DNA of 34,957 nt, from positions 1-34,957 of the IMG/VR virus record IMGVR_UViG_3300029085_000005; one strand, 5' to 3'. Source of the DNA: a virus (taxonomy: Duplodnaviria; Heunggongvirae; Uroviricota; Caudoviricetes). The notes beneath the pieces are model-generated. The model was given only the letters and a program-made list of their open reading frames with translations. It was not told where the DNA came from and made no database searches. Below, piece by piece: positions 52-23,456 of the stretch; the stretch's first letter is position 1; each line of letters starts with the position of its first letter. The position numbers and the translations under genes were made by a program.

Positions 52-189
52 TCAGCCACTGCGCGAACCACAATAGCCAGTTCGGGATTCGCATCCGTTG
101 CATTTTGCCCGGTAATATCCTGAAATTGCTTTCACCGTAACAGATGGACAACCACAAAACGGACATGGTTTAACATCGTCATATCTCAT
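52..189 (-). CDS. ralR: Lar/RalR-like restriction alleviation protein (about 45 aa, Cys-rich)
   Basis: Hand translation of the minus strand gives MRYDDVKPCPFCGCPSVTVKAISGYYRAKCNGCESRTGYCGSRSG with CPFCGC and CNGC motifs, matching my recollection of Rac RalR/Lar. It sits immediately downstream of recT as in Rac. Below the 60-aa cutoff of the ORF track; coordinates hand-counted. Confidence 0.5.
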   Translation of the reverse strand: MRYDDVKPCPFCGCPSVTVKAISGYYRAKCNGCESRTGYCGSRSG

Positions 190-245
190 AATTTTTGTCA
201 TAAAAACTGTCTCACGTTGGCGGTGCATTACACCGCCAGGCTGAA

Positions 246-1055
246 TTATTCTTCTGAATTATCGATTACACTGTATTCCCCGGTTAATACAGAGGAGTCT
301 GCCGGATCGATTGTCAGTGGTTCCTTTTCATCCATTGATACTGCACGCTGGATTTCAATTGAGACAGGCAGGTATTTAAACAGGCGACGAATAGCCGTTT
401 TTTTTGCCATTTCTTCCCAGTGAGTTACCCATGGCCCGTTATTACCAGCCTTACTCTGGCTGCGCACCAGTTCAATCTGTTTGCGCGTCATAACTTCAAA
501 CTGAGTCCCTCCGTCTTTCAGTCTTGCGACAGCATAGACGTGGGTCACTGGTGCATCTTCGTTTTCTCCCGGGCGGTGTATTAACTTTTCATCAAGGCCA
601 AATTCAAAACTAAACTCGTCACCTTCACGGACAACACGGGCTGACAGGCTGGCGATTTGACCAGAACGGCGAGCCAGATCAATCATGCCGCGATAACCAA
701 TGATTAGCTGAACGTTCTTTTTACCGCTCTTTTCGTTTTTATTACCAAAAGGCAGTAAATATGCGTGGCCGAGGGCGCTACCTGGCTCAAGGCCGAGCTG
801 TGAACACTGAACGATCGCACTGACAAAACTCATGGTGTCACAGTTTCCTAGCGCCGGAACCTTACGAATTTCTGTGGTGGCGATACGTATCATTCGTTCA
901 GCCGTCATATGGCGTGGGAGAGCTGCTGCCAGTTGCTCTTTCATTGATGGCTGATTAATAAAGCTGATCACGTCGTTATTTTTTACTGCTGCTGGTGCAC
1001 GGTTTCCCTGGGTTTTTTGCAGATCGGCTTTTGCGATAGGTGGTTGCTTAGTCAT
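246..1055 (-). CDS. recT: RecT single-strand annealing recombinase
   Basis: ORF 246..1112 translation from the internal Met ([24 protein letters not shown]...) matches Rac RecT as I recall it; start moved to that Met (19 codons in). Overlaps the recE stop by a few nt, as in the Rac recET operon. Confidence 0.9.
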
Positions 1056-10051: not shown

Positions 10052-10738
10052 ATGACCCCAATAAAAATATTTATGACTATTGCTGATTTCAAACGGCCTA
10101 AATTGGAGCTCCCAAACGGGGCAAACAAACTACTACTGCACTCTTGCTGTGCTCCATGTTCCGGTGAAGTGATGGAGGCGCTTCAGGCCTCGGGAATCGA
10201 CTACACCATCTTTTTCTACAACCCGAACATTCATCCTCAGAAAGAGTATTTAATTCGTAAGGATGAAAATATTCGCTTTGCTGAACAACACGGCGTGCCG
10301 TTTATCGATGCTGATTACGACACCGACAACTGGTTTGAACGTGCCAAAGGAATGGAATGGGAGCCTGAGAGGGGGATCCGTTGTACCATGTGTTTTGACA
10401 TGCGTTTTGAGCGGACAGCGTTGTACGCTGCTGAAAATGGTTTCAGTGTGATCAGCAGTTCACTGGGCATTTCACGCTGGAAAAATATGCAGCAGGTTAA
10501 CGAGTGTGGGCGGCGAGCTGTTGCGCATTATCCGGGTATGGTGTACTGGGATTATAACTGGCGCAAGCAGGGCGGCTCGTCCCGTATGATTGAAATCAGC
10601 AAGCGCGAAAAATTCTATCAGCAGGAATATTGTGGCTGTGTGTATTCTCTGCGCGATACCAATCTACACCGCAAATCTCAGGGACGCCCTCTTATCAAAA
10701 TTGGCCAACTCCACTACGGAAAAGAAGAGAAGGAGTGA
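10052..10738 (+). CDS. QueH-like (DUF208) putative epoxyqueuosine reductase
   Basis: 228-aa ORF with [11 protein letters not shown] near the N-terminus and EYCGCVYS near the C-terminus, the Cys pattern I associate with the DUF208/QueH family; flanked by intergenic regions with promoter-like hexamers (stand-alone moron). Confidence 0.55.
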
Positions 10739-12631: not shown

Positions 12632-12994
12632 ATGACTGAACGCATAGAATTTGTTTTGCCTTACCCGCCGACGGTGAATACCTACTGGCGACGTCATGGC
12701 AATACGTATTTCATCTCGGAGGCCGGAAAGCGTTATCGCCGTGATGTGGCGCTAATTGTTCGCCAGCAGCGGCTGAAATTAAACCTGTCCGGAAGGCTGG
12801 CGATAAAGGTGATTGCAGAGCCACCGGATAAGCGTCGTCGCGACCTGGACAATATCCTGAAAGCACCGCTGGATGCGCTGACGCATGCGGGAGTGTTAAT
12901 GGACGATGAGCAGTTTGATGAAATCAATATCGTTCGTGGTCAGCCAGTATCTGGTGGACGTCTGGGGGTGAAGATTTACCCCATAATGCATTAA
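12632..12994 (+). CDS. rusA: RusA Holliday junction resolvase
   Basis: 120 aa; VLPYPPTVNTYWR...RRRDLDNILKAPLDALTHAGVLMDDEQ matches the RusA signature including the catalytic Asp cluster; start overlaps the stop of the upstream gene. Confidence 0.85.
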   Translation: MTERIEFVLPYPPTVNTYWRRHGNTYFISEAGKRYRRDVALIVRQQRLKLNLSGRLAIKVIAEPPDKRRRDLDNILKAPLDALTHAGVLMDDEQFDEINIVRGQPVSGGRLGVKIYPIMH

Positions 12995-13008
12995 GAGCAG
13001 GTCAAAAA

Positions 13009-13830
13009 ATGAAACTGGAAGATTTACCGAAATACTACTCCCCAAAATCCCCTGGCCTGACCGATGCATCGGCCTCAACGTCAAAAGATGCGCTGAGTAT
13101 CACTGATGTGATGGCCGCGCAGGGCATGACACAGAATCGGGCTGAGATGGGTTTTTCTGCGTTCCTGGGGAAAATGGGCATCAGTATGAATGACAGGGCG
13201 CGGGCAACAGAATTACTGGCAGATTATGCACTCAGTCGGTGCGATCGTGTGGCGGCGTTGAGAAAACTTCCGGCAGAAATAAAACCGGTAGTGATGCGCA
13301 TTATGGCTTCGTACGCTTTTGAGGATTATGCCCGCAGCGCAGCGAGTAAAAAGCAGTGCCCTTGTTGCTATGGGGAAAAATTTATTGAAAGCGTAGTTTT
13401 TACAAACAAGGTCCAGTATCCGGATGGTAAGCCGCCGGTATGGGCAAAGTGTACGAAAGGTGTGTATCCGTCTTACTGGGAAGAATGGAAAAAAGTCAGG
13501 GAGGTGGTAAAAGTTGCCTGTCCGGAGTGTGGCGGAAAGGGTGAGGTTTCCACCGCCTGTAAGGATTGCCGTGGGCGTGGTGTCGCCATTCATCGTGAAG
13601 AGTCGGTAAAACGTGGTATGCCTGTTATCAGAGACTGCCAGCGTTGTGGTGGTCGTGGCTGTGAAAGACTACCATCAACGGAGGCATTTAATGCCATACG
13701 CAAAGTGACGAGTGCTATCACGCTTGATACGTGGAAAAAATCAGTGAAACGCTTTTACGATACGTTGGTGGTTCGGTTTGACATTGAAGAGGCATGGGCG
13801 GAGCGGCAGTTAAAGAGGGTAACGCGATAG
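13009..13830 (+). CDS. Q: late-gene antiterminator Q (lambda Q family, zinc-binding)
   Basis: N-terminus MKLEDLPKYYSPKSP...DVMAAQGM parallels lambda Q MRLESVAKFHSPKSP...DVMAAMGM; multiple CxxC pairs; immediately followed by a PR'/qut-like sequence. Confidence 0.8.
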   Translation: MKLEDLPKYYSPKSPGLTDASASTSKDALSITDVMAAQGMTQNRAEMGFSAFLGKMGISMNDRARATELLADYALSRCDRVAALRKLPAEIKPVVMRIMASYAFEDYARSAASKKQCPCCYGEKFIESVVFTNKVQYPDGKPPVWAKCTKGVYPSYWEEWKKVREVVKVACPECGGKGEVSTACKDCRGRGVAIHREESVKRGMPVIRDCQRCGGRGCERLPSTEAFNAIRKVTSAITLDTWKKSVKRFYDTLVVRFDIEEAWAERQLKRVTR

Positions 13831-13834
13831 TGTT

Positions 13835-13885
13835 GTTGATTTTTCCCGAATCTGTGGTAAATTTGCTCTAACGATGGGCGTTTTA
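13835..13885 (+). promoter_or_regulatory. late promoter PR' with qut/pause element
   Basis: TTGATT (-35), 17-nt spacer, TAAATT (-10), followed by TTGCTCTAACGATGGGCG, which closely resembles the lambda PR' pause/qut region as I recall it. Coordinates approximate. Confidence 0.6.
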
Positions 13886-13911
13886 TGCCTGACGTTAGAA
13901 GATTTTTTACA

Positions 13912-13935
13912 CCCCGCCGCCTGGCGGGTTTTTTA
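13912..13935 (+). terminator. intrinsic terminator (tR'-like)
   Basis: ccccgccgcctggcgggtttttta: GC stem cccgcc/ggcggg with a 4-nt loop and a T-tract, about 45 nt downstream of the PR' -10. Confidence 0.65.
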
Positions 13936-14056
13936 TGACTGAAATCGCGTCAGTACAGTAAACGCGCTGGTGGCGGTGAATACCTGTCTTTCAGCTTGCT
14001 GGCTTTTTCGACAAGAGTTATTGGTGTGTCACGTTAACCGGAAAAGGGAAAAAGAC

Positions 14057-14254
14057 ATGCTAAAACAGCAGGATATGACAGAAACCGCCAGAGTAGTGTT
14101 TAATGAATTAAGAGTTACCGAACCGGCGACAGTCGGGGAGATAGCGCAGAATACTTACCTTTCACGCGAACGCTGCCAGTTAATACTGACCCAGCTGGTT
14201 ATGGCGGGTCTGGCAGACTATCAGTTCGGTTGTTACAGACGCCTTCCGCAGTGA
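14057..14254 (+). CDS. small winged-helix-like protein (about 65 aa) upstream of the methyltransferase
   Basis: Internal ATG of ORF 13970..14254 preceded by AAAAGGGAAAAAG; TVGEIAQNTYLSRERCQLILTQLVMAGLADY resembles a wH/HTH. Confidence 0.45.
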   Translation: MLKQQDMTETARVVFNELRVTEPATVGEIAQNTYLSRERCQLILTQLVMAGLADYQFGCYRRLPQ

Positions 14255-14404
14255 AGGCTTTTTTATTTGTGGTAAATGGGCGGCTGGTGGGTGTTAGGGG
14301 CACCCACCAGCCATCTGCTCATGCGTTGGGTTCACAAGCAAACCTCAGGCCCACTGCTTTGCGCAAAAGCAGAATGAGCCTATCAGAGACAGGCTTAATG
14401 ATCC

Positions 14405-15456
14405 ATGCTTAATACTGTAAAAATATCCAGTTGTGAGTTAATCAACGCCGACTGCCTGGAATTTATCCGGTCGTTACCCGAAAATTCTGTTGACCTGATA
14501 GTCACGGACCCGCCGTACTTTAAAGTGAAGCCTGAGGGCTGGGATAACCAGTGGAAGGGCGACGATGATTACCTGAAGTGGCTGGACCAGTGTCTGGCGC
14601 AGTTCTGGCGGGTGCTGAAACCTGCCGGAAGTCTTTACCTGTTCTGTGGTCATCGCCTGGCATATCTGATATCGAAATCATGATGCGTGAACGCTTCAGT
14701 GTGCTGAACCATATTATCTGGGCGAAGCCGTCCGGACGCTGGAACGGATGCAACAAGGAAAGCCTGCGGGCGTATTTCCCCGCCACAGAGCGCATTCTGT
14801 TCGCGGAACATTATCAGGGGCCGTATCGTCCGAAAGATGCCGGGTATGCGGTGAAGGGCAGTGCACTGAAACAGCATGTGATGGCCCCGCTGATTTCTTA
14901 CTTTCGTGATGCGCGCGCGGCCCTGGGGATAACGGCAAAACAGATTGCAGATGCCACAGGAAAGAAAAACATGGTGTCGCACTGGTTCAGTGCCAGTCAG
15001 TGGCAGCTACCGAACGAAAGCGATTATCTGAAATTACAGTCGCTGTTTGCCCGGGTGGCAGAAGAGAAACATCAGCGCGGTGAACTGGAAAAGCCCCACC
15101 ACCAGCTGGTGGATACGTATACGTCACTGAACCGGCAGTATGTGGAGCTGCAGAGTGAATATAAGCATCTGCGGCGGTATTTTGGTGTGACGGCGCAGGT
15201 GCCGTACACGGATGTGTGGACACATAAACCGGTGCAGTTCTATCCCGGGAAACATCCGTGCGAAAAACCGGCAGAAATGCTGCAGCAGATAATCAGCGCA
15301 AGTAGCCGTCCTGGTGATCTGGTTGCGGATTTTTTCATGGGGTCGGGTTCAACGGTAAAAGCGGCGATGGCACTGGGGCGTCGTGCGATTGGTGTTGAGC
15401 TGGAGACCGGACGTTTTGAGCAGACAGTCAGGGAAGTTCAGGATTTAATCGTTTGA
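14405..15456 (+). pseudogene. beta-class DNA amino-methyltransferase (N6-adenine or N4-cytosine), interrupted by a +1 frameshift
   Basis: ORF 14405..14683 carries motif IV DLIVTDPPYF and LKPAGSLYLFCGH; ORF 14578..15456, in the +1 frame and overlapping by about 100 nt, carries the rest including motif I DFFMGSGST near the C-terminus. Together they make one methyltransferase of about 350 aa. Confidence 0.65.
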
Positions 15457-15505
15457 AACGGATGAGATTGCAGAATTAATTACGCACCATTATTATTCTG
15501 CTCCC

Positions 15506-15581
15506 GGCCCTTTAGCTCAGTGGTGAGAGCGAGCGACTCATAATCGCCAGGTCGCTGGTTCAAATCCAGCAAGGGCCACCA
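15506..15581 (+). tRNA. tRNA-Ile2 (anticodon CAU, ileX/ileZ-like)
   Basis: ggccctttagctcagtggtgagagcgagcgactcataatcgcc...ggttcaaatccagcaagggccacca: perfect 7-bp acceptor stem, CAU anticodon in a 7-nt loop, T-loop TTCAAAT, CCA end. Closely resembles E. coli tRNA-Ile2 from memory; elongator Met is not formally excluded. Confidence 0.7.
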
Positions 15582-15588
15582 TCACATA

Positions 15589-15665
15589 CCGCCATTAGCT
15601 CATCAGGAAAGAGCGCCAGCCTTCGAAGCTGGTTGCGCGGAGTTCGGGTCCCCGAAGGCGGTCCA
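15589..15665 (+). tRNA. tRNA-like element, Arg(UCG)-type anticodon arm, degenerate acceptor and T arms
   Basis: Perfect anticodon stem ccagc/gctgg with loop cttcgaa (anticodon UCG), D-arm gctc...gagc and terminal CCA, but one A-A mismatch in the acceptor stem, one A-C mismatch in the T stem and a non-canonical T-loop ttcgggt. Coordinates approximate. Confidence 0.4.
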
Positions 15666-15678
15666 TTATCTGTATCCT

Positions 15679-15755
15679 GCGTTGTTAGCTCAGCCGGACA
15701 GAGCAATTGCCTTCTAAGCAATCGGTCACTGGTTCGAATCCAGTACAACGCGCCA
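15679..15755 (+). tRNA. tRNA-Arg (anticodon UCU, argU-like)
   Basis: gcgttgttagctcagccggacagagcaattgccttctaagcaatcggtcactggttcgaatccagtacaacgcgcca: perfect acceptor stem, loop cUUCUAa, canonical T-loop GTTCGAATC, CCA end. Confidence 0.75.
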
Positions 15756-15801
15756 CACTTATTTTCCCTGGCTCGCTTTTGTGGGCCTTTTTTTTAAATG
15801 T

Positions 15802-16020
15802 CTCACAATTTAGGCGGTTGACTGTTGTCTGGTTTGCGGGGAGTTTGTTAAAAGAAACTGGCATGGTGAATCCCCCTGTGCGGAGGGGCAATCAGCGAGT
15901 AGGTATATGGGATAATCGCGGATTCAGGTGCTGGTACTGAATTCACCGGGAGGCACCCGGCACCATGCAATGGCACATAGCGCCACTCTCCAGCCCCTCT
16001 CCGGAGGGGCTTTTCTGTGC
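15802..16020 (+). repeat. structured non-coding module, copy A (promoter-like hexamers, two GC hairpins, terminal intrinsic terminator)
   Basis: Begins ctcacaatt; contains gttgactgttg, gcatggtgaatccccctgtgcggaggggc (hairpin), ctgaattcaccgggaggcacccggcaccatg (hairpin), and ends gcccctctccggaggggcttttctg. No credible ORF. Coordinates approximate. Confidence 0.5.
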
Positions 16021-16204
16021 CGGATACATCACAGTTTCTGGAACCTTAGGTACTACAGTATCAGTCAGGGTGCTATATTTTCAGATGTGATGAAAGCCTG
16101 TCAGCAGGCAGGGCGTATCGGAAATGACCCAGTAGAGAAAACGTTGACTCAGATACCGGTGCTGAGTTACCGGGAAACCGGCATCACATGACCGCTATCC
16201 TTCC

Positions 16205-16231
16205 AGGCCCATCCGCTCCGGTGGGCCTTTT
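16205..16231 (+). terminator. intrinsic terminator between the two modules
   Basis: ggcccatccgctccggtgggccttttt: 6-bp GC stem with T-tract. Confidence 0.5.
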
Positions 16232-16269
16232 TACTGCAGAAAACAGGTTCCCCGTTAAATGCTATGTTG

Positions 16270-16508
16270 CTCACAATTCAGTAAGTTGACAGTTGCCTGT
16301 CAGACTGGGCATTTGTTAAAAAAATTTCGCATGGTGAATCCCCCTGAGCGGAGGGGCGACTGGTGACGGTATAATCTCTGATTATCAAAACGAGAATGAC
16401 GCGGGTTTAGTGGCACCGGGCTGAACTCACCGGGAGGCACCCGGCACCATGTGCATGATGATACAGATACGCGGCTTTAGCCCCTCTCCGGAGGGGTTTT
16501 CTTGTGGG
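16270..16508 (+). repeat. structured non-coding module, copy B (paralogue of copy A)
   Basis: Begins ctcacaatt; TTGACA inside the palindrome tgacagttgcctgtca; gcatggtgaatccccctgagcggaggggc; consensus TATAAT (ggtgacggtataatc); ctgaactcaccgggaggcacccggcaccatg; ends gcccctctccggaggggttttcttg. Blocks collinear with copy A, variable sequence between them. Confidence 0.5.
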
Positions 16509-16731
16509 CAAAAAAAGCCCGCGCTGGGAGACGCGGGCGGCAAGGAATAAACAATAAAACGTGAAGTAATATTTCAGCTGGCGAATAATACCCCATAGTA
16601 ATCACTCTGCGCAACTGCGCGGTCTTTTTCGAATTGCGGGCTGTCGTCTCTCTTCTGCCATTGTCCTGTAACTTCCGGACTTCAGCCCGCTCCTTATTTT
16701 ACTCACAATATTATCCCGGCCGGGAGGATTC

Positions 16732-16959
16732 ATGGCATTTAAACACTATGACGTGGTCAGGGCGGTATCGCCGTCAGACCTTGCGAAACGACTGACACAA
16801 AAACTGAAGGAGGGCTGGCAGCCGTTTGGTAGTCCGGTGGCCATAACCCCTTATACCCTGATGCAGGCGATTGCAGCAGAAGGTGATGTGGTGGTCAGTG
16901 GTGCAACTGAGCCGGATTGGTACTACGTCATCGTACTGGCCGGGCATTCCAGGCCATAA
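16732..16959 (+). CDS. small hypothetical protein upstream of the holin (possibly DUF1737-like)
   Basis: 75-aa ORF preceded by GGGAGGA; the family call is a weak recollection only. Confidence 0.4.
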   Translation: MAFKHYDVVRAVSPSDLAKRLTQKLKEGWQPFGSPVAITPYTLMQAIAAEGDVVVSGATEPDWYYVIVLAGHSRP

Positions 16960-17227
16960 AAGACGGTCTGGCAGTGGGACTAAATGCACTGACGCTGACG
17001 GATATTACCAAAAATGCAACGTATGGCGTTGAGATAGAAAGTCTGGTGCTGGAGATAAATGCACCGGCATCATCATAAAAAGTGAGCCAGTCAAATGGAA
17101 GGTATCGTTAAACTCACCGGTAGTGTCAGTGGGTCGTCTGAGACGCCTGCATGAGTTATCAGAGCCATCAGTACTTAACTGGTGGCTTTTTTATTGTTGT
17201 CAGCTTCCGGATAACGGGAGACGGGGT

Positions 17228-17443
17228 ATGTACCAGATGGAAAAAATCACAACAGGTGTGTCATACACCACGTCAGCGGTGGGAACGGGCTACTGGTTCC
17301 TGCAGTTGCTGGACAGGGTTTCCCCGTCTCAGTGGGCGGCAATAGGCGTGCTGGGGAGTCTGCTGTTTGGGCTGCTGACATATCTGACTAACCTGTATTT
17401 CAAAATCAAAGAGGACCGGCGTAAGGCGGCGCGGGGAGAGTAA
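17228..17443 (+). CDS. S: class II holin, S21-like pinholin with dual-start motif
   Basis: Internal Met of ORF 17123..17443 gives [71 protein letters not shown] (71 aa, two TM segments, Met1/Met4 dual start, charged C-terminus), closely resembling phage 21 S21 from memory. Confidence 0.8.
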
Positions 17444-17447
17444 AGTG

Positions 17448-18338
17448 ATGAATAAAAAATATGAACTGGTTGTTAAGGGGATAAATAATTACGGGGATAA
17501 GGTTACTGTTACTGTGAAGCCGGAAGGTGACGGGCAAGCGTCGCTGTTGTTGCCAGATGTGGCGATTAGTCTTGACCGTACTGAAGGTGCCACGCTGGAG
17601 TTTTACGAAGCTGAGGCGAAAAAGCAGGCGAAGCAGTTTTTCATGGATGTTGCTGCCGGGTTATGTGAAGGGGATGGTCCGTTGCCGGAAAAGCGCCCCG
17701 TAATTTTAGAGGCGCAGGATGTGTTGATAACCTACAAAGGAAAGCTACCGGGAAGAATTACTTGTTCTCTGAAGATGCCGCCGTCAACACTGCGGTCAGA
17801 AAAAGATGATGTTGAATCACGTATTGAAAAACTGGAGAGCTACGTCGTTGAGCTGAATAAGAAATGGTCGATATTGGTGCCTTCTGGCGATGAAAAGCAG
17901 TTTGCTGCGTTTGACGATTATTGTCGGAAAGTGATGAGCAGAAATCTCGCAGAGTGTTTCAGTATTCATAATGATAATTTCAGTGACCCGGAATGGGAGT
18001 GTAACCGGCCATCCTTTGTTGTATCCGGTGATGCTGGGAAAATAACCATCTCAGAAAATGGGAAAGTAACACCTCCATCGCACCAGCACAGTGAGGAGCT
18101 CATTGAATTTGCCATTGATTACCTGAAGAACAATAAAAAGCAGGGGCTGATGAAGCGCGTTGGCCGTTGCATGGGATATCTGCAGGTAGCTGCTGAGATT
18201 GAAGCGCTGGCCAGTGGTGCTGATAAGGATGCAATTGTGCGGGAGGCTTTTCTTCGTGATTTTAATACTCCACCCTTTAAAAAAGTGCCGGCTTACTGGC
18301 TTCATCCGGGGCTGACTTATCTTAAAGTGCGTATTTAG
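17448..18338 (+). CDS. hypothetical 296-aa soluble protein inserted between holin and endolysin (unknown function)
   Basis: ORF 17445..18338 (GTG at 17445, ATG at 17448) starts a few nt after the holin stop and ends about 35 nt before the endolysin start. No TM segment, signal peptide or motif recognised; visibly AT-richer than the flanking genes. Confidence 0.55.
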   Translation: MNKKYELVVKGINNYGDKVTVTVKPEGDGQASLLLPDVAISLDRTEGATLEFYEAEAKKQAKQFFMDVAAGLCEGDGPLPEKRPVILEAQDVLITYKGKLPGRITCSLKMPPSTLRSEKDDVESRIEKLESYVVELNKKWSILVPSGDEKQFAAFDDYCRKVMSRNLAECFSIHNDNFSDPEWECNRPSFVVSGDAGKITISENGKVTPPSHQHSEELIEFAIDYLKNNKKQGLMKRVGRCMGYLQVAAEIEALASGADKDAIVREAFLRDFNTPPFKKVPAYWLHPGLTYLKVRI

Positions 18339-18374
18339 TGGGCCAGGGACAGCGGCTGAATATTTAATATATCC

Positions 18375-18908
18375 ATGAACACCAAAATCAAATACGGCCT
18401 GTCGGCTGCCGTTCTGGCGCTGATTGCCGCTGGTGCGCCTGCGCCTGACATTCTCGACCAGTTTCTGGATGAAAAGGAAGGCAACCACACCACAGCATAC
18501 CGTGATGGTGCGGGTATCTGGACCATCTGCCGAGGTGCCATCATGGTGGATGGTAAGCCTGTGATTCCTGGCATGAAGCTGTCGAAGGAAAAATGCGACT
18601 GGGTTAACACTATCGAACGGGATAAGGCGCTGGCGTGGGTGGAGAAAAACATCAGAGTGCCACTGACCGAACCCCAGAAAGCGGGGATCGCGTCATTCTG
18701 TCCGTACAACATTGGTCCCGGTAAGTGTTTCCCGTCGACGTTTTACAGACGAATTAATGCTGGTGATCGAAAAGGTGCCTGCGAAGCGATTCGCTGGTGG
18801 ATTAAGGACGGTGGCAGAGACTGCCGTATTCGTTCAAACAACTGTTACGGTCAAGTATCCCGTCGTGACCAGGAGAGCGCGCTGGCGTGCTGGGGTATCG
18901 ACAGATAA
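18375..18908 (+). CDS. R: SAR endolysin (R21-like, T4-lysozyme fold, GH24)
   Basis: N-terminal signal-anchor-release segment (LSAAVLALIAAGA) and catalytic E-8aa-D-5aa-T motif in LDEKEGNHTTAYRDGAGIWTICRG. Confidence 0.85.
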   Translation: MNTKIKYGLSAAVLALIAAGAPAPDILDQFLDEKEGNHTTAYRDGAGIWTICRGAIMVDGKPVIPGMKLSKEKCDWVNTIERDKALAWVEKNIRVPLTEPQKAGIASFCPYNIGPGKCFPSTFYRRINAGDRKGACEAIRWWIKDGGRDCRIRSNNCYGQVSRRDQESALACWGIDR

Positions 18909-19064
18909 GCAGAATATTTTGCTGAAAAATGAGGAATGGCCACGCGGGCGGATAACACGAAATCCTGCGAACTGGCGAAACGTAAGTGAATAAAAGTAAA
19001 AACCCCGTTTGTTGGCACCAAGCGAGGTTTTGTGTTTCTGACCTTGAGTAAGGCAAGGGAGAAC

Positions 19065-19247
19065 ATGGCGAAGTATAAACGAATTCTGTTGAGGTTGACT
19101 ATGAAAAATGGCCTTGAACTGAAAGCGCCTGTAACTGATGACATCAGCAGAGCACTGGCTTTTGCCATTAAGTGGGTGGCGGTCGGTGTTGCTGTGTCCC
19201 CGATGCTGTATGGGCTGGCAAAACTGGTCATTGCGTTGAAATCGTGA
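19065..19247 (+). CDS. small membrane protein (about 60 aa) between endolysin and Rz
   Basis: Internal ATG of ORF 19032..19247 preceded by AAGGGAGA; [60 protein letters not shown] with one C-terminal TM segment. Confidence 0.4.
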
Positions 19248-19261
19248 AGGGAGGATTAAGC

Positions 19262-19393
19262 ATGTCAGACAAACTCATAACGCTGGCGAAGATCCTCTGT
19301 GTAATTGTCGGCATTTCATTTTCACTAATGCTGGTTGCTCTTTTTCTTTCCATGGCCTGGATGATGTTGTCTTCGTCGGGGTTGCTGGGGTGA
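19262..19393 (+). CDS. small hydrophobic peptide (about 43 aa) between endolysin and Rz
   Basis: Internal ATG of ORF 19172..19393 preceded by GGGAGGA; [43 protein letters not shown], a single TM segment. Confidence 0.4.
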
Positions 19394-19404
19394 ACATAAA
19401 CCGA

Positions 19405-19860
19405 ATGCTTTCCGCGTTTATCGTTATTCTGCTGGTGGCCTGTGGTGCGCTGTGGATGGCAACAGACCATTACCGTGATAACGCGATTACCTACAAAGCG
19501 CAGCGCGATAACAAAGCCAGTGAACTGAAGCTGGCGAACGCAACCATTACTGATATGCAGGTGCGCCAGCGCGATGTTGCTGCACTCGATGAAAAATACT
19601 CAAGGGAGTTAGCTGATGCGAAAGCTGAAAATGATGCTCTGCGTGATGATATTGCCGCTGGTCGTCGTCGGTTGCGCATCAGAGCAGTCTGTCCAGCCGT
19701 GCGTGAAGCCACCGGCACCACCGGCGTGGATGATGCAGCCCGCCCCGGACTTACTGACGCCGCTCAACGGGATTATTTCACCCTCAGAGAGCGAATCGCA
19801 ACCAGCGACAGAATGATTCGGGGATTGCAGGAATATATCCGCACCCAGTGCATTAAGTAG
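19405..19860 (+). CDS. Rz: Rz i-spanin
   Basis: ORF 19390..19860 from its internal ATG: N-terminal TM anchor ([17 protein letters not shown]) followed by a coiled-coil-type periplasmic domain; the embedded +1 lipoprotein ORF confirms the Rz/Rz1 arrangement. Confidence 0.8.
19616..19816 (+). CDS. Rz1: Rz1 o-spanin lipoprotein (embedded in Rz, +1 frame)
   Basis: Signal peptide with lipobox ([14 protein letters not shown]), Pro-rich mature region; the true start may be one of the downstream Met codons. Confidence 0.7.
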
Positions 19861-19883
19861 TCTTTTTATTATCCGGAGGATGT

Positions 19884-20108
19884 ATGAAGAAATTACTGGT
19901 AACCGTAAAGCCCTTTAACGGAACAATTCCGTTCCGGGTTTTACAGCGTGGGCGTGTTCTGGCTGAAGGCACATTCAGTGGTAAATGCACGGAATGTTAT
20001 TCACGAACATATGAAGTGGATGCCACGGATGAAGAAATCTCTGTTGAATGTGATCTGAATGCAAATATGGCGGGGATTGTATCAGCGACATTGTTGCCTG
20101 TTTCCTGA
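19884..20108 (+). CDS. hypothetical small protein
   Basis: 74-aa ORF immediately after Rz, preceded by GGAGGA; no family recognised. Confidence 0.4.
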   Translation: MKKLLVTVKPFNGTIPFRVLQRGRVLAEGTFSGKCTECYSRTYEVDATDEEISVECDLNANMAGIVSATLLPVS

Positions 20109-20149
20109 ATGACATAGAATGTCTCCGGGTACCCAAAAAGGAGATAATT

Positions 20150-20362
20150 ATGTTTATTGCGGAAGGATTAGAGCCAGATCCAATCAACAAAGGTTGGGTT
20201 AAAGGATGGGCTGTTGTTAAAGGATCGCCATGGCATCTTGTAGGCGTCTATGCAACAAAAGAGGTTGCCGAGACAAAAGCAAAAATGGTTGGCGATGGAT
20301 ATGAAGTGCATTACGGCTCTTATCGAAAGGGAAGCGATGATTTTGTATGGAGTGAGCAGTAA
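20150..20362 (+). CDS. hypothetical small protein
   Basis: 70-aa ORF preceded by AAGGAGA; followed by a strong intrinsic terminator. Confidence 0.4.
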   Translation: MFIAEGLEPDPINKGWVKGWAVVKGSPWHLVGVYATKEVAETKAKMVGDGYEVHYGSYRKGSDDFVWSEQ

Positions 20363-20382
20363 CCTGATACCTGTGATTATTA

Positions 20383-20408
20383 AACCGCCTCATCATGGCG
20401 GTTTTTTT
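20383..20408 (+). terminator. intrinsic terminator ending the lysis region
   Basis: aaccgcctcatcatggcggttttttta: 7-bp stem aaccgcc/ggcggtt with T-tract. Coordinates approximate. Confidence 0.6.
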
Positions 20409-20439
20409 ATGTCTGGCTGACGGGTCCTCCCGGTGGGGT

Positions 20440-20600
20440 GGGGCTGTACACGGGGCGGGCGGCGCGGAAAAAGGCGCATTTTTGTGATTTTATCGTCATC
20501 ATCATCATAATGGTAACTTATTGTTTTTAATGTGTTTAGCATTAAAAAGATGATGATTGCGGTTGATTTTTGTTCGACATCTTTATATGGCGGCATTTCT
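20440..20600. other. cos-like region (putative cosN and cosB) upstream of the small terminase gene
   Basis: GC-rich acggggcgggcggcgcgg resembling lambda cosN (GGGCGGCGACCT), followed by an AT-rich segment cgtcatcatcatcataatggtaacttattgtttttaatg resembling lambda cosB/IHF-site sequence; position matches lambda. Boundaries approximate. Confidence 0.4.
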
Positions 20601-20650
20601 TTACAAAAAAAGAGCCACTTTTGTTCAGCGGTTTATGTGGAGGGATGTAA

Positions 20651-21127
20651 ATGGACGGCGAGCTGAAAAATATGAAGTTAAATATTAATCAACTGGCAGC
20701 CCTTTCAGGTCTGCACCGGCAGACTGTTGCCGCCAGAATGGCGGATGTTCCTCTTGCACCAGGCAGTAATGAAAAGAAAAAACTGTATCTCCTGACGGAT
20801 TTGATTATTTCGTTGCTGGAAAAACCACCGACTTCCGAAGATGAAGAGATGAACCCACATGATCGGAAGGCATGGTATCAGTCCGAGCGCGAGCGTCTTA
20901 AATTTCAGCATGAAACTGTTCAGCTTGTGCCTGTCAGTGATGTCAGGCGGTCCTTTTCTGTCGTGGTGAAAGCGATAGTTCAGGTACTGGAAACCTGGCC
21001 TGACCGGCTGGAAAGGGACAGAGGGTGGACCGCATCACAACTGAATGAAGTACAGATTGTGGTTGATGAGATCCGCGACACACTGGAAAAGGCAGTCATT
21101 GACTGTTGTGATGAGGCCGATATGTGA
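20651..21127 (+). CDS. terminase small subunit (Nu1-like, N-terminal HTH)
   Basis: MKLNINQLAALSGLHRQTVAARM HTH parallels the lambda Nu1 N-terminus (MEVNKKQLADIFGASIRTIQNWQ); overlaps the start of the large terminase. The true start may be the Met 7 codons in. Confidence 0.7.
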   Translation: MDGELKNMKLNINQLAALSGLHRQTVAARMADVPLAPGSNEKKKLYLLTDLIISLLEKPPTSEDEEMNPHDRKAWYQSERERLKFQHETVQLVPVSDVRRSFSVVVKAIVQVLETWPDRLERDRGWTASQLNEVQIVVDEIRDTLEKAVIDCCDEADM

Positions 21128-23247
21128 ATCAGGTGAACGAGAGCCATAGCCGCGCATCCGATATCTGGCGCGAAGTGGCCTCGCTGTTTCGCCCGCCCAG
21201 CCGGTTACCAGTAGCGGAAGCCATCAGGCGTTATATGCGGGTACCACGGGGAGCCAATACTTCCGGTCCGTGGGAGTCATCGCTGACGCCCTATATGATT
21301 GACCCTATTAATACATTATCAGCCCGTGAATATGACGCGGTGGTGTTTGTGGGACCTGCGCGAACCGGGAAAACCGAAGGGCTGATTGACGGCTGGATTG
21401 TGTACGGCATCATCTGTGATCCGGCGGATATGCTGGTGGTGCAAATGACCGAGACGAAGGCGCGGGAACACTCCAGAACGCGTCTTTCCAGAACGTTTCG
21501 TCACAGCCCGGAGGTCAGTAAGCGTCTCAGTCCTTCCCGTAATGACAACAACGTCCACGATAAAATGTTTCTTGACGGCTCCTTCCTGAAGATTGGCTGG
21601 CCGTCGATCACTGTATTTTCTTCTTCGGATTACCGTCGTGTGGCGCTGACGGATTATGACCGTTTCCCTGAAAACGTGGACGGGGAAGGGGATGCCTTCA
21701 CCCTGGCATCAAAGCGTACCACCACCTTTATGTCCTCGGGGATGACCCTGGTCGAGAGTTCGCCGGGGCGGGATATCACTGACACCAAATGGCGCTGTGG
21801 CGGCGCACATGAGGCACCGCCAACAACGGGGATCCTGTCACTGTATAACCGGGGAGACCGCCGCCGGTGGTACTGGCCGTGTCCGCACTGCGGGGAATAT
21901 TTTCAGCCGGTGATGGATAACATGACCGGATACCGGAATAACCCGGATTTTGTGGCTGCCGGTCAGGCTGCCCGTCTGATGTGTCCGCATTGTCGCGGGC
22001 TGATTGCCCCTGAGCAGAAACGCGAACTGAATAACAAAGGGATCTGGCTTCGTGAAGGTGAACGGGCGGTGGCGGACGGCAGTATCACCGGAACGCCACG
22101 AAATTCCCGGATTGCGTCATTCTGGATGGAGGGGCCGGCTGCGGCGTTTCAGACCTGGGAACAACTGATTTTTAAACTGCTGGCGGCAGAAGAAGAGTAT
22201 GAGCGAACCGGCAGTGAAGAGACCCTGAAAGCGGTGGTGAACACCGATATCGGACGCCCCTATCTGCCCCGTTCAGCCACGGAACAGCGTAAAAGTGAAC
22301 TGCTTGAACAGCGTGCCGAGCCGTTTCCCCGGCGATCTGTGCCGGATGGTGTGCGTTTTATTGAGGCAACGGTTGACGTACAGGGCGGTAAAAATCGCCG
22401 TTTTGTTGTGCAGATCACCGGATACGGAGAGCAGGGGGAACGCTGGATTGTTGATCGCTATAACATCCGGCATTCACTGCGCTGCAGTCCCAACGGTGAA
22501 AGTCTGCCGGTTGATCCGGCGGCATATCCGGAGGACTGGGATTTGTTGCTGACGGATGTGTTCCATAAAACATGGCCGCTGGCTTCTGATCCGGATGTGC
22601 GCATGCGTCTGATGGCCATGGCGGTGGATACGGGAGGGGAAGCCGGGGTGACAGATAACGCCTATCGTTTCTGGCGTCGTTGCCGGAGTGACGGACTGGG
22701 CAACAGGGTGTTTCTGTTCAAGGGGGATGGACTTCGCCGTGACAGGCTGATTAACCGTACCTTCCCGGATAATACCGGCAGAAGTGCCCGCCGTGCCAGA
22801 GCCAGTGGCGATGTCGCGCTGTGGCTGGTTCAGACGGATGCGTTTAAGGACCGTGTAAATAATGCCCTGTGGCGTGACACACCAGGGCCGAACTATATCC
22901 ACTTTCCCGACTGGCTGGGGCGATGGTTTTACGATGAGCTGACCTATGAAGAGCGCGGCAGTGACGGAAAATGGCGAAAACCGGGCAGGGGAGCTAACGA
23001 GGCGTTTGACCTGCTGGTTTATGCGGATGCGCTTGCCGTTCTGCATGGTTACGAAAAGATCCGCTGGCCCTCCGCACCGGACTGGGCACAGCGGGAAACG
23101 TGGCTCGTCTTCCCGCAGGAGCGTTCTGGTGAAACGGTATCCCCGGAACTGACGGCCGGGGCAGAAAAACGCCGTCGCCGGAAGAAAAAACTGCGGACGG
23201 AGCGTGCGGAAGATAATCCATGGATAACATCAGGAGGCTGGTTGTGA
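21124..23247 (+). CDS. A: terminase large subunit (lambda gpA family)
   Basis: 707 aa; Walker A-like FVGPARTGKTE; CPHCG zinc-ribbon-like motif; GTG start overlapping the small-subunit stop; followed by W and portal. Confidence 0.85.
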   Translation: MNQVNESHSRASDIWREVASLFRPPSRLPVAEAIRRYMRVPRGANTSGPWESSLTPYMIDPINTLSAREYDAVVFVGPARTGKTEGLIDGWIVYGIICDPADMLVVQMTETKAREHSRTRLSRTFRHSPEVSKRLSPSRNDNNVHDKMFLDGSFLKIGWPSITVFSSSDYRRVALTDYDRFPENVDGEGDAFTLASKRTTTFMSSGMTLVESSPGRDITDTKWRCGGAHEAPPTTGILSLYNRGDRRRWYWPCPHCGEYFQPVMDNMTGYRNNPDFVAAGQAARLMCPHCRGLIAPEQKRELNNKGIWLREGERAVADGSITGTPRNSRIASFWMEGPAAAFQTWEQLIFKLLAAEEEYERTGSEETLKAVVNTDIGRPYLPRSATEQRKSELLEQRAEPFPRRSVPDGVRFIEATVDVQGGKNRRFVVQITGYGEQGERWIVDRYNIRHSLRCSPNGESLPVDPAAYPEDWDLLLTDVFHKTWPLASDPDVRMRLMAMAVDTGGEAGVTDNAYRFWRRCRSDGLGNRVFLFKGDGLRRDRLINRTFPDNTGRSARRARASGDVALWLVQTDAFKDRVNNALWRDTPGPNYIHFPDWLGRWFYDELTYEERGSDGKWRKPGRGANEAFDLLVYADALAVLHGYEKIRWPSAPDWAQRETWLVFPQERSGETVSPELTAGAEKRRRRKKKLRTERAEDNPWITSGGWL

Positions 23248-23456
23248 GCACAGAAGAAGCCAGAGAAATGATACAGCGGTACCGTGAAGCGGAAATGGCC
23301 GTACTGGAGGGGAAGTCTGTCACCTTCAACGGACAGCAACTGACGCTGGAAAGCCTTTCTCAGATCCGCGCCGGACGTCAGGAGTGGGAACGCAGGCTTG
23401 CCGCGATGGTGAGCCGCAGGCGGGGAAAACCAGGATTTAAACTGGCGAGGTTTTAA
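23244..23456 (+). CDS. W: head-tail joining protein gpW-like
   Basis: ORF 23220..23456; AGGAGG lies 6 nt before the GTG at about 23244, giving a roughly 70-aa product in the lambda W position. Confidence 0.55.
   Translation: MSTEEAREMIQRYREAEMAVLEGKSVTFNGQQLTLESLSQIRAGRQEWERRLAAMVSRRRGKPGFKLARF

What the first reader, a model, noticed from the sequence alone, without database searches (positions are those of the whole stretch)
14057..15456. Late-operon cargo: small winged-helix ORF followed by a frameshifted beta-class DNA methyltransferase
Motif IV (DPPY) and motif I (FxGxG) of a single amino-methyltransferase lie in two overlapping ORFs in different frames (14405..14683 and 14578..15456), so the gene as given cannot make a full-length enzyme without a +1 shift. 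No homopolymer or simple repeat is obvious at the junction (about 14650-14680), which argues against classical slipped-strand phase variation. The small upstream winged-helix ORF could be a controller. Together with the Lar/RalR-like gene at the other end of the window, the element carries two anti-restriction functions.
Basis: partly seen in the sequence, partly recalled or inferred. Interest (0 to 1): 0.5.

Follow-up and report, generated by a model that had tools for sequence, protein, structure and literature searches.

The report
Frameshifted prophage non-specific adenine methyltransferase
This is a prophage copy of the well-known non-specific DNA adenine methyltransferase M.EcoGI/M.EcoGII, knocked out by a genuine, inherited 2-base duplication; it is an ordinary pseudogene, though a conserved, undescribed folded RNA leader sits just upstream of it.

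Summary
One beta-class amino-methyltransferase (DPPY at 14507-14518, FxGxG at 15334-15348) is split between ORFs 14405..14683 and 14578..15456. Alignment to intact homologues places the lesion exactly. It is a tandem duplication of AT (GGCATCTGA to GGCATATCTGA, 14662-14665). Restoring the frame needs a -1 or +2 shift, not +1.

With the 2 bases removed, the 349-aa protein is 346/349 identical to an E. coli O104:H4 prophage enzyme (probably M.EcoGI). It is about 95% identical to M.EcoGII, the characterised non-specific m6A methyltransferase, which is silent in lysogens and harmful when expressed constitutively.

The frameshift is not an assembly error. The exact 92-aa truncated product is on record in at least 23 contigs, from 4 isolate assemblies and at least 6 metagenome samples. 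These span at least three prophage backgrounds, and the 1052-bp CDS is identical in all complete copies. None of about 2,400 copies in complete E. coli genomes carries it. There is no slippery site and no repeat tract.

The verdict is a lineage-specific loss-of-function allele. The upstream 65-aa ORF is a confident winged helix, but nothing supports a controller role. Lar is confirmed. In passing, the 150-nt MTase leader proved to be a conserved, covarying RNA structure that is absent from Rfam.

The parts
13009..13830 (+). Q-type late antiterminator gene (273 aa)
   Evidence: Pfam PF03589 Antiterm, E 6.5e-51. Annotated 'antitermination protein' in near-identical prophages.
13836..13863 (+). 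pR'-like late promoter (TTGATT, 16 nt, TGgTAAATT); inferred
   Evidence: Read from the sequence. It scores 8/12, just under the scanner's threshold. The resemblance to lambda pR' is from my own knowledge.
13913..13935 (+). tR'-like intrinsic terminator (CCCGCCGCCTGGCGGG + TTTTTTA)
   Evidence: Terminator scan, 6 GC pairs plus a T-run.
14057..14254 (+). Small conserved winged-helix ORF (65 aa), function unknown
   Evidence: phrog_331, E 1.5e-37, unknown function. Weak TrmB hit below the cut-off. 327 homologues at 79-98% identity across Enterobacteriaceae. AF2 with MSA gives pLDDT 89.8 and a wH topology. Foldseek top hits are wH domains, none with E below 1e-3.
14241..14268 (+). Terminator-like hairpin plus U-run directly after the small ORF
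   Evidence: GCCTTCCGCAGTGAAGGC + TTTTTTATTT. The hairpin is kept, with compensatory changes, in Klebsiella and Salmonella.
14268..14404 (+). Conserved structured RNA leader of the MTase. Helix 1 is 14277-14281 with 14349-14353. Hairpin 2 is 14282-14312, hairpin 3 about 14316-14340, hairpin 4 14355-14376. It contains a mini-ORF, MGGWWV..., starting at 14276.
   Evidence: 78-82% nt identity between E. coli and Klebsiella/Salmonella, against 44-46% at MTase third-codon positions. Present in about 38 of 45 species loci. Structure counts on 40 sequences: 97.5% of cells paired, 7 pairs with double changes against 1.8 in shuffles (0/500), slid controls 0-3. No Rfam family on this strand. The covariance model finds a divergent copy upstream of a 41%-identical MTase.
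14405..15456 (+). Frameshifted M.EcoGI/M.EcoGII-type non-specific adenine DNA methyltransferase gene (pseudogene; 1052 bp against 1050 bp intact)
14405..14683 (+). N-terminal fragment ORF: 86 native residues including DPPY (14507-14518), then an aberrant tail YLISKS and a stop
   Evidence: The exact product is on record in at least 23 contigs.
14662..14665 (+). The lesion: ATAT where intact genes have AT (2-bp tandem duplication)
   Evidence: Alignments. Absent from 2,427 copies in complete E. coli genomes. Present in all carriers.
14665..15456 (+). C-terminal 264 native codons in the -1 frame (TRD plus FxGxG at 15334-15348). Gene callers start the product at ATG 14680, which overlaps the ORF1 stop as ATGA.
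14911..14918 (+). (GC)4 run, intact here. It is the site of an independent -2 frameshift in the otherwise identical sister allele.
   Evidence: AR_0017. RefSeq flags that gene 'frameshifted'. Eight complete genomes carry it.
15506..15755 (+). Three phage tRNA genes: CAT (annotated Ile in relatives), Arg-TCG and Arg-TCT
   Evidence: ARAGORN, Rfam, annotations.
52..228 (-). Lar restriction-alleviation gene, next to recT (246-1112) and recE (1048-3723)
   Evidence: Pfam PF14354 at 30.2 bits against a 28.6 cut-off; RecT and Exonuc_VIII hits.

Best explanation
The locus is a two-gene late-operon cargo module of a lambdoid prophage: a small winged-helix gene, then a structured leader plus a non-specific N6-adenine DNA methyltransferase of the M.EcoGI/M.EcoGII family. 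In intact phages the module is presumably transcribed only when Q lets RNA polymerase read through tR' and the second terminator during lytic growth. The enzyme then methylates phage DNA at adenines in any context and protects it from restriction. That silence-then-expression scheme is inferred from the anatomy here and from the published silence of M.EcoGI/II in lysogens. In this window a replication-slippage-type duplication of one AT dinucleotide (14662-14665) shifts the frame after codon 86. Translation stops 6 codons later, separating the catalytic DPPY motif from the TRD and the SAM-binding FxGxG motif. The gene is therefore a loss-of-function allele, a pseudogene. The mutation is real and heritable. 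It has spread by descent and by mosaic recombination into several prophage backgrounds, and it is a minority state of a gene that is intact in over 90% of copies. Shown: the lesion, its position, family membership by sequence, and recurrence of the allele in independent assemblies. Inferred: loss of activity, the slippage mechanism, and Q-dependent expression.
For: The lesion is located by alignment to four intact homologues and to two near-identical alleles. The repaired product is 349 aa with a full PF01555 match. It is 346/349 identical to the O104:H4 prophage enzyme WP_000935536.1 and 348/349 to the O111 15A enzyme. It is 331/350 identical to the machine-read M.EcoGII sequence. M.EcoGII is 349 aa and 333/349 identical to M.EcoGI. 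It is non-specific, silent in the lysogen and deleterious when constitutive, with a relative in phage 1720a-02, which is my top phage hit (PMC5778455). The exact truncated 92-aa product occurs in at least 23 contigs from 4 NCBI isolate assemblies and at least 6 ENA metagenome samples. The 12 carriers that span the whole gene have a 100% identical 1052-bp CDS, while their flanks differ by about 2%. One has a different Q type, and the nanS-p gene is intact in some and deleted in others. Most copies are intact: about 3 of 57 full-length copies in a spread sample of E. coli genomes have frameshifting lengths, 80 of 80 IMG/VR protein-anchored loci match across essentially the whole protein, residues 1 to 347-349, and 94 of 101 leader-anchored IMG/VR loci are intact. 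The overlap contains no slippery heptamer, homopolymer or SD-like sequence. The sister allele, identical otherwise, is independently frameshifted in its (GC)4 run and flagged as a pseudogene by RefSeq.
Against: No activity was measured. The downstream 258 codons are still open in every carrier. The ORF1 stop overlaps an in-frame ATG (ATGA at 14680-14683), so termination-reinitiation could yield a C-terminal fragment lacking only 5 native residues. Identical CDS in all complete carriers means there is no sign of further decay, which fits a young pseudogene but does not prove loss of function. The M.EcoGII sequence used for comparison came from a machine-read supplementary table with visible OCR errors. 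The assignment of the O104:H4 copy to M.EcoGI is an inference from identity counts.
Confidence: 0.87

Rival explanations
1. Sequencing or assembly error: the true gene is continuous and the extra AT is an artefact.
For: No copy with the insertion exists among 2,427 copies in 5,426 complete E. coli genomes, nor in the GTDB species representatives or IMG/VR.
Against: The exact truncated product is called in at least 23 contigs from different projects and assemblers (SPAdes NODE_, MEGAHIT k141_, NCBI isolate assemblies). The insertion also occurs with a different Q gene (L018) and with a 9-SNP patch inside the gene (L006). A dinucleotide duplication outside any homopolymer is not a typical platform error.
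Confidence: 0.02
2. Functional split enzyme. The 92-aa N-fragment and a 258-aa C-fragment, re-initiated at the ATG (14680) that overlaps the ORF1 stop (ATGA), assemble into an active and perhaps attenuated, less toxic methyltransferase.
For: The ATGA stop-start overlap is there, and gene callers predict both products. Only 5 native residues (SDIEI) would be missing. All carriers keep the downstream frame open. Constitutive M.EcoGII is deleterious, so attenuation could be tolerated or favoured.
Against: The break lies inside the conserved catalytic lobe. It falls between the GSLYLFC strand and the NHIIWAKP strand, within a continuous aligned block in solved homologues (residues 8-114). There is no SD-like sequence before ATG 14680. 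The split state is absent from over 2,400 other copies and from 45 species representatives. Identical CDS among carriers gives no signal of selection.
Confidence: 0.05
3. Regulated recoding or phase variation: a programmed -1 ribosomal frameshift, transcriptional slippage, or reversible repeat-length switching restores the full-length enzyme in a fraction of cells.
For: The two frames overlap by about 100 nt, and the required shift (-1) is the common direction for programmed frameshifts.
Against: There is no X XXY YYZ heptamer, even a partial one, between 14560 and 14683, and no homopolymer of 5 or more. The (AT)2 unit is far below tract lengths that switch at useful rates. Intact homologues are single continuous ORFs. 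The site shows no length variation in 2,427 other copies, and all carriers are fixed for ATAT.
Confidence: 0.02
4. Adaptive loss. The frameshift was selected because leaky expression of a non-specific adenine methyltransferase harms the lysogen, so the null allele spread among prophages by recombination.
For: Constitutive expression is deleterious. The same parental allele was inactivated twice independently, by +AT here and by -GC in 8 complete genomes. The null allele is found in at least three prophage backgrounds with an identical 3.5-kb block.
Against: More than 90% of copies are intact. Two terminators and a structured leader already silence the gene. Two rare null alleles among thousands of copies fit neutral decay of prophage cargo equally well. 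This rival concerns why the allele persists, not what it is.
Confidence: 0.15

Closest known systems
M.EcoGI / M.EcoGII (E. coli O104:H4 C227-11 prophage orphan methyltransferases; Murray et al. 2018, PMC5778455)
   Same: Same length (349 aa after repair) and same beta-class motif order, DPPY then TRD then FxGxG. The repaired protein is 346/349 identical to an O104:H4 prophage copy (probably M.EcoGI) and about 95% identical to M.EcoGII. The genomic slot is the same in O104:H4: Q, small ORF, MTase, three tRNAs.
   Different: The window copy carries a 2-bp duplication that truncates the protein at residue 86 plus a 6-residue tail. Activity was not tested.
Frameshifted sister allele in E. coli AR_0017 and 7 other complete genomes (RefSeq pseudogene AM344_RS03275)
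   Same: The sequence is identical across the 1.55-kb module apart from the two indels. The prophage sequence upstream is the same as in several ATAT carriers. It too is a null allele.
   Different: Its frameshift is a -2 deletion in the (GC)4 run at window 14911-14918, not the +2 AT duplication at 14662-14665. The two events are independent.
phiP27 L23-L24 and Stx2-phage 'DNA methylase' genes upstream of ileZ-argN-argO-stx
   Same: Same two-gene module, 150-nt spacer and tRNAs. These are 1059-bp intact genes at 83-95% nt identity.
   Different: Those genes are intact and end 3 codons later. Those phages carry stx downstream, whereas this window has STnc100-like sRNA repeats and a deleted nanS-p gene instead.
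YhdJ (M.EcoKII/M.EcoGVI-type chromosomal ATGCAT adenine methyltransferase)
   Same: Also a beta-class PF01555 amino-methyltransferase. It gives the best NCBIfam hit by E-value (1e-32).
   Different: The score is 113.5 bits against the equivalog cut-off of 292, and the match covers only residues 9-109. The TRD, specificity and genomic context all differ.
Controller (C) proteins of type II R-M systems
   Same: Both are small DNA-binding-fold proteins encoded just upstream of a modification gene.
   Different: C proteins have an Xre-type HTH and sit with a restriction gene and C-box operators. This ORF is a winged helix with only a sub-threshold TrmB hit, there is no endonuclease gene nearby, and it is separable from the MTase in other genomes.

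Membership tests
Beta-class N6-adenine/N4-cytosine amino-methyltransferases (Pfam PF01555) | Catalytic motif IV (D/S)PP(Y/F) near the N-terminus | tested here: met
   DPPY at residues 35-38, nt 14507-14518.
Beta-class N6-adenine/N4-cytosine amino-methyltransferases (Pfam PF01555) | SAM-binding motif I FxGxG near the C-terminus, after the TRD (the IV-TRD-I permutation) | tested here: met
   F-M-G-S-G at nt 15334-15348, in the -1 frame. The order was confirmed on the repaired protein.
Beta-class N6-adenine/N4-cytosine amino-methyltransferases (Pfam PF01555) | Profile match above the gathering threshold | tested here: met
   152.8 bits against 26.7 for the repaired protein. The two fragments score 42.2 and 100.2 bits separately.
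M.EcoGI/M.EcoGII non-specific adenine methyltransferases | Near-identity over the full 349 aa to the characterised enzymes | tested here: met
   331/350 identical to the M.EcoGII sequence, which contains OCR errors. 346/349 identical to the O104:H4 prophage copy. This holds after in-silico removal of the 2 extra bases.
M.EcoGI/M.EcoGII non-specific adenine methyltransferases | One uninterrupted ORF encoding both lobes | tested here: not met
   The 2-bp duplication at 14662-14665 gives a stop at 14681-14683. The window gene is a pseudogene of the family, not a functional member.
M.EcoGI/M.EcoGII non-specific adenine methyltransferases | Methylation of adenine in any sequence context | not testable with these tools
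   This needs LC-MS or SMRT analysis of DNA from cells expressing the allele.
M.EcoGI/M.EcoGII non-specific adenine methyltransferases | Prophage location, silent in the lysogen | tested here: inconclusive
   Location is met: the gene lies downstream of Q and two terminators, as in O104:H4. Silence is known only from the literature for relatives.
YhdJ equivalog (NCBIfam NF008572) | Score at or above the curated equivalog cut-off | tested here: not met
   113.5 bits against 292.
R-M controller (C) proteins | Xre-type helix-turn-helix domain | tested here: not met
   There is no HTH_3 hit, only TrmB at 17.7 bits against 25.6. The AF2 model is a winged helix.
R-M controller (C) proteins | Adjacent cognate restriction endonuclease gene | tested here: not met
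   The MTase is followed by three tRNA genes, and no nuclease ORF lies in 13830-17100.
R-M controller (C) proteins | Obligate linkage of the small gene with the modification gene | tested here: not met
   11 of 38 species loci have the leader plus MTase without a detectable small ORF. Four IMG/VR phages keep the small ORF but have other cargo in place of the MTase.
Phase-variable (slipped-strand) methyltransferases | Simple-sequence repeat tract in the ORF whose length varies between isolates | tested here: not met
   Only (AT)2 is present. 0 of 2,427 other copies vary at the site, and all carriers are fixed.
Programmed -1 ribosomal frameshift genes | Slippery heptamer in the overlap, and conservation of the two-frame arrangement in homologues | tested here: not met
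   No heptamer is present, and homologues are single ORFs.
Lar restriction-alleviation proteins (Pfam PF14354) | Profile match above the gathering threshold, next to recET | tested here: met
   30.2 bits against 28.6. RecT and RecE lie immediately adjacent.

The most novel reading that the evidence does not exclude
The 150 nt between the winged-helix gene and the methyltransferase (14255-14404, core 14277-14353) may be an undescribed cis-regulatory RNA. Its predicted shape is a three-way-junction-like fold followed by a further hairpin, with an embedded mini-ORF (MGGWWVL). It would gate translation or read-through of a toxic non-specific adenine methyltransferase. It has been conserved with the gene across Enterobacterales, and in diverged form upstream of a 41%-identical enzyme. 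The frameshift alleles would then be what remains when that control is not enough, or when the cargo is dispensable.
Probability: 0.4. Interest if true: 0.45.

Novelty: already known. Interest (0 to 1): 0.2.

Why it matters
As submitted, the finding matters little. It is one more inactivated prophage cargo gene, and pipelines such as PGAP already flag such copies as frameshifted. Three points are still useful. First, the gene should be annotated as a pseudogene of the M.EcoGI/M.EcoGII non-specific m6A methyltransferase family, not as two genes and not as YhdJ-like. A methylome of this lysogen, or of its phage, should show no contribution from it. Second, the allele is a natural null that circulates in gut E. 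coli in several prophage backgrounds. A second, independent null exists in the same parental allele. Together they offer a simple test of whether this enzyme is costly to lysogens or needed by the phage against restriction. Third, the conserved structured leader found in passing could explain how a toxic enzyme widely used in biotechnology (MadID, Fiber-seq-type footprinting) is kept silent in its native context.

Tried and rejected
1. Assembly error. Rejected because the allele recurs in many independent assemblies.

2. Phase variation and programmed frameshifting. Rejected because there is no repeat tract, no slippery site and no variation at the site.

3. YhdJ orthology. Rejected because the score is far below the equivalog cut-off.

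4. The small ORF and MTase as the published two-subunit Stx-phage rRNA methyltransferase M.ECPA8_3172P-PNB-2 (bioRxiv 10.1101/2023.09.20.558713). Rejected because phiPA8 gp5 is a 208-aa protein in the early-left region with no significant similarity to this enzyme.

5. The small ORF as an R-M controller. Not supported, for the reasons given in the membership test.

6. A second promoter in front of the MTase. The 13-nt repeat ATYTGTGGTAAAT (13850 and 14265) matches the pR' -10 region, but the -10 hexamer TAAATG lacks the final T. A match of this kind has roughly a 0.1 chance of arising at random (my estimate), so I did not pursue it.

7. A single-sequence AF2 model of the small ORF was too poor to use (pLDDT 59) and was redone with an alignment.

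8. Foldseek on the good model gave only generic winged-helix hits, with no E-value at or below 1e-3, so no functional transfer was made.

9. Protein-anchored IMG/VR loci were too similar (96-100%) to test covariation. GTDB species representatives were used instead.

10. A leader peptide as the conserved feature. Only the first 7 codons are conserved, and the uORF length ranges from 3 to 45 codons. One G-to-A change in codon 2 is compensated on the pairing partner. These points favour RNA-level constraint but do not exclude a short uORF.
Full report
OBSERVATION. The ORF list shows 14405..14683 (92 aa, containing TDPPYF) and 14578..15456 (292 aa from a mechanical GTG, containing DFFMGSGST) on the + strand in different frames. 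Both fragments hit Pfam PF01555 (N6_N4_Mtase), at profile positions 1-57 and 71-219 respectively. The difference 14578-14405 is 173, which is 3x57+2.

LOCATING THE LESION. The region matches 40 phage records, where it is annotated as a single 'DNA methylase' gene of 1059 bp preceded by a 198-bp hypothetical gene. It also matches 2,340 of 5,426 complete E. coli genomes. Alignment to phiP27, phage 1720a-02, an Stx2a phage and E. coli O111 15A (a 1050-bp intact gene) shows one frame-breaking difference. The window reads GGCATATCTGA where all the others read GGCATCTGA. This is a tandem duplication of one AT unit at 14662-14665. Translation then runs GCA TAT CTG ATA TCG AAA TCA TGA and stops at 14681-14683. 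Removing the 2 bases gives a 349-aa protein with a full-length PF01555 match of 152.8 bits.

IS IT REAL? An 82-bp query across the junction found 2,427 copies in complete E. coli genomes, none better than 97.6% identical, so none has the insertion. An exact-pattern scan found nothing in the GTDB species representatives or in IMG/VR. It did find two ENA metagenome contigs. One is 100% identical to the window over 9.3 kb. The other is only 99.2% identical over 2.4 kb and diverges elsewhere.

Looking up the exact 92-aa truncated product found it in 26 index blocks, and 23 contigs were read. They include four NCBI isolate assemblies (GCA_902708365.2, GCA_902710805.2, GCA_900499995.1, GCA_958311415.1) and at least six ENA metagenome samples from different assemblers. 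Every carrier that spans the whole gene has a 100% identical 1052-bp CDS. The flanks differ, however. Five carriers diverge by about 2% upstream of roughly 13,270-13,390. One has a different Q family and diverges up to 14,331. Some keep an intact 617-aa nanS-p esterase gene that is deleted in the window. One carries a 9-SNP patch at 14840-14919. The frameshift is therefore a genuine, heritable allele. It has existed long enough to sit in at least three mosaic prophage backgrounds.

WHAT THE GENE IS. The literature search led to Murray et al. 2018 (PMC5778455). M.EcoGII from E. coli O104:H4 C227-11 is a 349-aa beta-class enzyme encoded on a prophage. It methylates adenine in any context, is not expressed in the lysogen, makes cells sick when expressed constitutively, and is 333/349 identical to M.EcoGI. 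It also has a close relative in phage 1720a-02, which is my best phage hit. The M.EcoGII sequence printed in the supplement of PMC11551740 is machine-read and has a few obvious errors. It is 331/350 identical to the repaired window protein, including identical N- and C-termini.

An O104:H4 chromosome carries two copies. The one closest to the window (WP_000935536.1) is 346/349 identical to the repaired protein. It is about 333/349 identical to M.EcoGII once the OCR errors are discounted, so it is probably M.EcoGI. It sits in the same arrangement: Q, a 65-aa ORF, the MTase, three tRNAs. Methylome papers report that M.EcoGI/II homologues in O111 and ST131 strains give no signal in lysogens. The YhdJ equivalog model scores only 113.5 bits against a cut-off of 292, so 'YhdJ-like' is not the right label.

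CONTEXT. The upstream gene 13009-13830 is a Q antiterminator (PF03589). It is followed by a pR'-like TTGATT-16-TGgTAAATT (13836-13863, read from the sequence; just under the scanner's threshold) and a strong terminator at 13913-13935. A second terminator-like hairpin with a U-run follows the small ORF (14241-14268). Downstream lie three tRNAs, STnc100-type sRNA repeats, a remnant of nanS-p, and then holin and other lysis genes. 'Late-operon cargo' is thus supported by anatomy. Q-dependence itself is inferred. At the other end of the window, ORF 52..228(-) passes the Lar Pfam threshold and adjoins recT and recE.

RECODING OR PHASE VARIATION? In the overlap there is no X XXY YYZ heptamer, not even a partial one. 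There is no homopolymer of 5 or more, and no SD-like sequence before the ATG at 14680. The only repeat longer than two units in the gene is (GC)4 at 14911-14918. The closest allele in complete genomes is that of AR_0017 and seven other genomes, which is otherwise identical to the window. It has lost one GC unit there, lacks the AT duplication, and is flagged 'frameshifted' by RefSeq. So the same parental allele was inactivated twice, independently.

Such events are nevertheless rare. In an evenly spread sample of 60 genome hits, about 3 of 57 full-length matches have a frame-breaking length, and 3 more are partial or fragments (a rough estimate from alignment spans). All 80 protein-anchored IMG/VR loci match across essentially the whole protein (residues 1 to 347-349). 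In a sample anchored on the upstream leader rather than on the protein, 94 of 101 genes are intact, 3 are disrupted and 4 are replaced by other cargo. The gene is therefore normally maintained, and the window carries a minority null allele.

One feature keeps a small door open. The ORF1 stop overlaps an in-frame ATG (ATGA). Reinitiation could produce a 258-aa C-fragment lacking only residues SDIEI, and gene callers do predict it. However, the break lies inside the conserved catalytic lobe, which is one continuous aligned block in solved homologues. I rate a functional two-piece enzyme at about 5%.

THE SMALL ORF. The 65-aa product matches phrog_331 (unknown function, E 1.5e-37) and gives only a sub-threshold TrmB hit. 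It has 327 homologues at 79-98% identity in Escherichia, Shigella, Salmonella, Klebsiella, Citrobacter and Buttiauxella. Sources name them 'TrmB family regulator' or 'DprA-like winged helix'. AlphaFold2 with a 22-sequence alignment gives pLDDT 89.8 and the topology H1-strand-H2-H3-beta-hairpin, which is a winged helix. Foldseek finds only generic winged-helix domains from IclR/MarR regulators, O-methyltransferase N-domains and SelB, none with E at or below 1e-3.

The pair of small ORF and MTase, with the same 150-nt spacer, occurs downstream of three different Q families in Klebsiella and Salmonella prophages. The linkage is not obligate, though. Eleven of 38 species-representative loci have the leader and MTase without a detectable small ORF. 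Four IMG/VR phages keep the small ORF but carry a different ~0.8-kb cargo in place of the MTase. Nothing supports a controller role in the R-M sense. I also checked and rejected the idea that this pair is the published two-subunit Stx-phage rRNA methyltransferase. That enzyme (phiPA8 gp5) is an unrelated 208-aa protein in the early region.

NOTICED: A CONSERVED STRUCTURED LEADER. The 150-nt spacer (14255-14404) is 78-82% identical between E. coli and Klebsiella or Salmonella, while MTase third-codon positions are only 44-46% identical. It lies directly upstream of the MTase start in about 38 of 45 Enterobacterales species loci. RNAalifold on 40 sequences predicts the following fold. Helix 1 (UGGGC 14277-81 with GCCCA 14349-53) encloses hairpin 2 (14282-14312) and hairpin 3 (xGCU...AGCx'). 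A further hairpin follows at 14355-14376.

An all-against-all column scan finds one outstanding covarying pair, at the base of hairpin 3: CG 20, AU 10, UA 5, UG 4, with 100% canonical pairing. On the named structure, 97.5% of cells pair. Seven pairs show double changes, against 1.8 in shuffles (0/500), and slid controls give 0-3. The G-U pairs support the sense strand. The window leader folds at -63.4 kcal/mol (z = -2.8), and its single-sequence MFE structure occludes the nucleotides just 5' of the start codon.

No Rfam family matches on this strand at E up to 0.1. A covariance model built from the alignment finds a diverged copy (23 bits) upstream of a 41%-identical MTase in an unrelated gammaproteobacterium. 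That copy retains helix 1 and shows a GGUG/CACC to GGUA/UACC change in hairpin 2. The 5' arm also reads as a mini-ORF, MGGWWVL. This is the whole peptide in 18 of 39 sequences (20 have a 7-codon uORF), and the length otherwise varies from 3 to 45 codons. The evidence for structure is moderate, because most pairs are invariant. The function, presumably translational or read-through control of a toxic enzyme, is a hypothesis.

VERDICT. The finding is a correctly spotted but ordinary frameshift pseudogene of a known, well-characterised methyltransferase family. It should be annotated as such. Interest in the finding itself is low. The only element in the interval that might be new is the leader RNA.

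Noticed in passing
window 14255-14404 (core 14277-14353, extra hairpin 14355-14376): The 150-nt spacer upstream of the MTase is more conserved than synonymous sites of the gene. It folds into a covariation-supported three-way-junction-like RNA that matches no Rfam family. It accompanies the MTase in about 38 of 45 Enterobacterales species loci, and in diverged form upstream of a 41%-identical enzyme.
   Followed up: partly
window 14276-14299 (inside the leader): The invariant 5' arm of the leader reads AUG GGC GGC UGG UGG GUG (MGGWWV, with tandem Trp codons). The peptide is exactly MGGWWVL in 18 of 39 sequences, and 20 of 39 have a 7-codon uORF; the rest vary from 3 to 45 codons. Whether a short uORF matters is open.
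   Followed up: partly
window 14911-14918; L004 6957-6966: The otherwise identical allele in E. coli AR_0017 and 7 other complete genomes is independently frameshifted by loss of one GC from this (GC)4 run. RefSeq marks it 'frameshifted'.
   Followed up: yes
window 15832-16022, 16061-16234, 16300-16509: There are three tandem STnc100-family sRNA matches (161, 136 and a weak 30 bits), each ending in a terminator-like hairpin. They lie in the slot between the phage tRNAs and nanS-p, where Stx phages carry stx.
   Followed up: no
window about 16936-16957: Most of the nanS-p (DUF1737/SASA/DUF6645 esterase, 617 aa) gene present in sister prophages (L010 4767-6250) is deleted here, leaving a 75-aa remnant. 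The two matching segments overlap by about 22 nt at the junction.
   Followed up: partly
L167, L205, L231, L250 (IMG/VR): In four phages the homology to the window stops in mid-leader (about 14304-14328) and resumes at the tRNAs (15489). A different AT-rich ~0.8-kb cargo replaces the MTase, while the winged-helix ORF is kept.
   Followed up: partly
PHROG families 6025 and 6952: PHROGs holds separate families for the N-terminal half (residues 1-204) and the C-terminal half (171-349) of this enzyme. This suggests that split or frameshifted copies, broken near the (GC)4 run, are deposited in phage genomes often enough to form their own clusters.
   Followed up: no
window 12900-17500: Terminator-like hairpins are about four times more frequent than in shuffled sequence (18 against 4.8 +/- 2.2), concentrated in the Q-to-holin cargo region.
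   Followed up: no
window 10052-10738: The prophage early region encodes a QueH (epoxyqueuosine reductase) homologue (PF02677, E 1e-65), an unusual metabolic cargo gene next to hokD.
   Followed up: no
window 13606-24683: This stretch is 100% identical to the ENA gut-type metagenome contig ERZ1741997 NODE_389 (OBUX01000389.1). The same prophage therefore circulates in sampled communities. No complete E. coli genome in RefSeq holds the whole window; the best covers 68% at 95% identity.
   Followed up: partly
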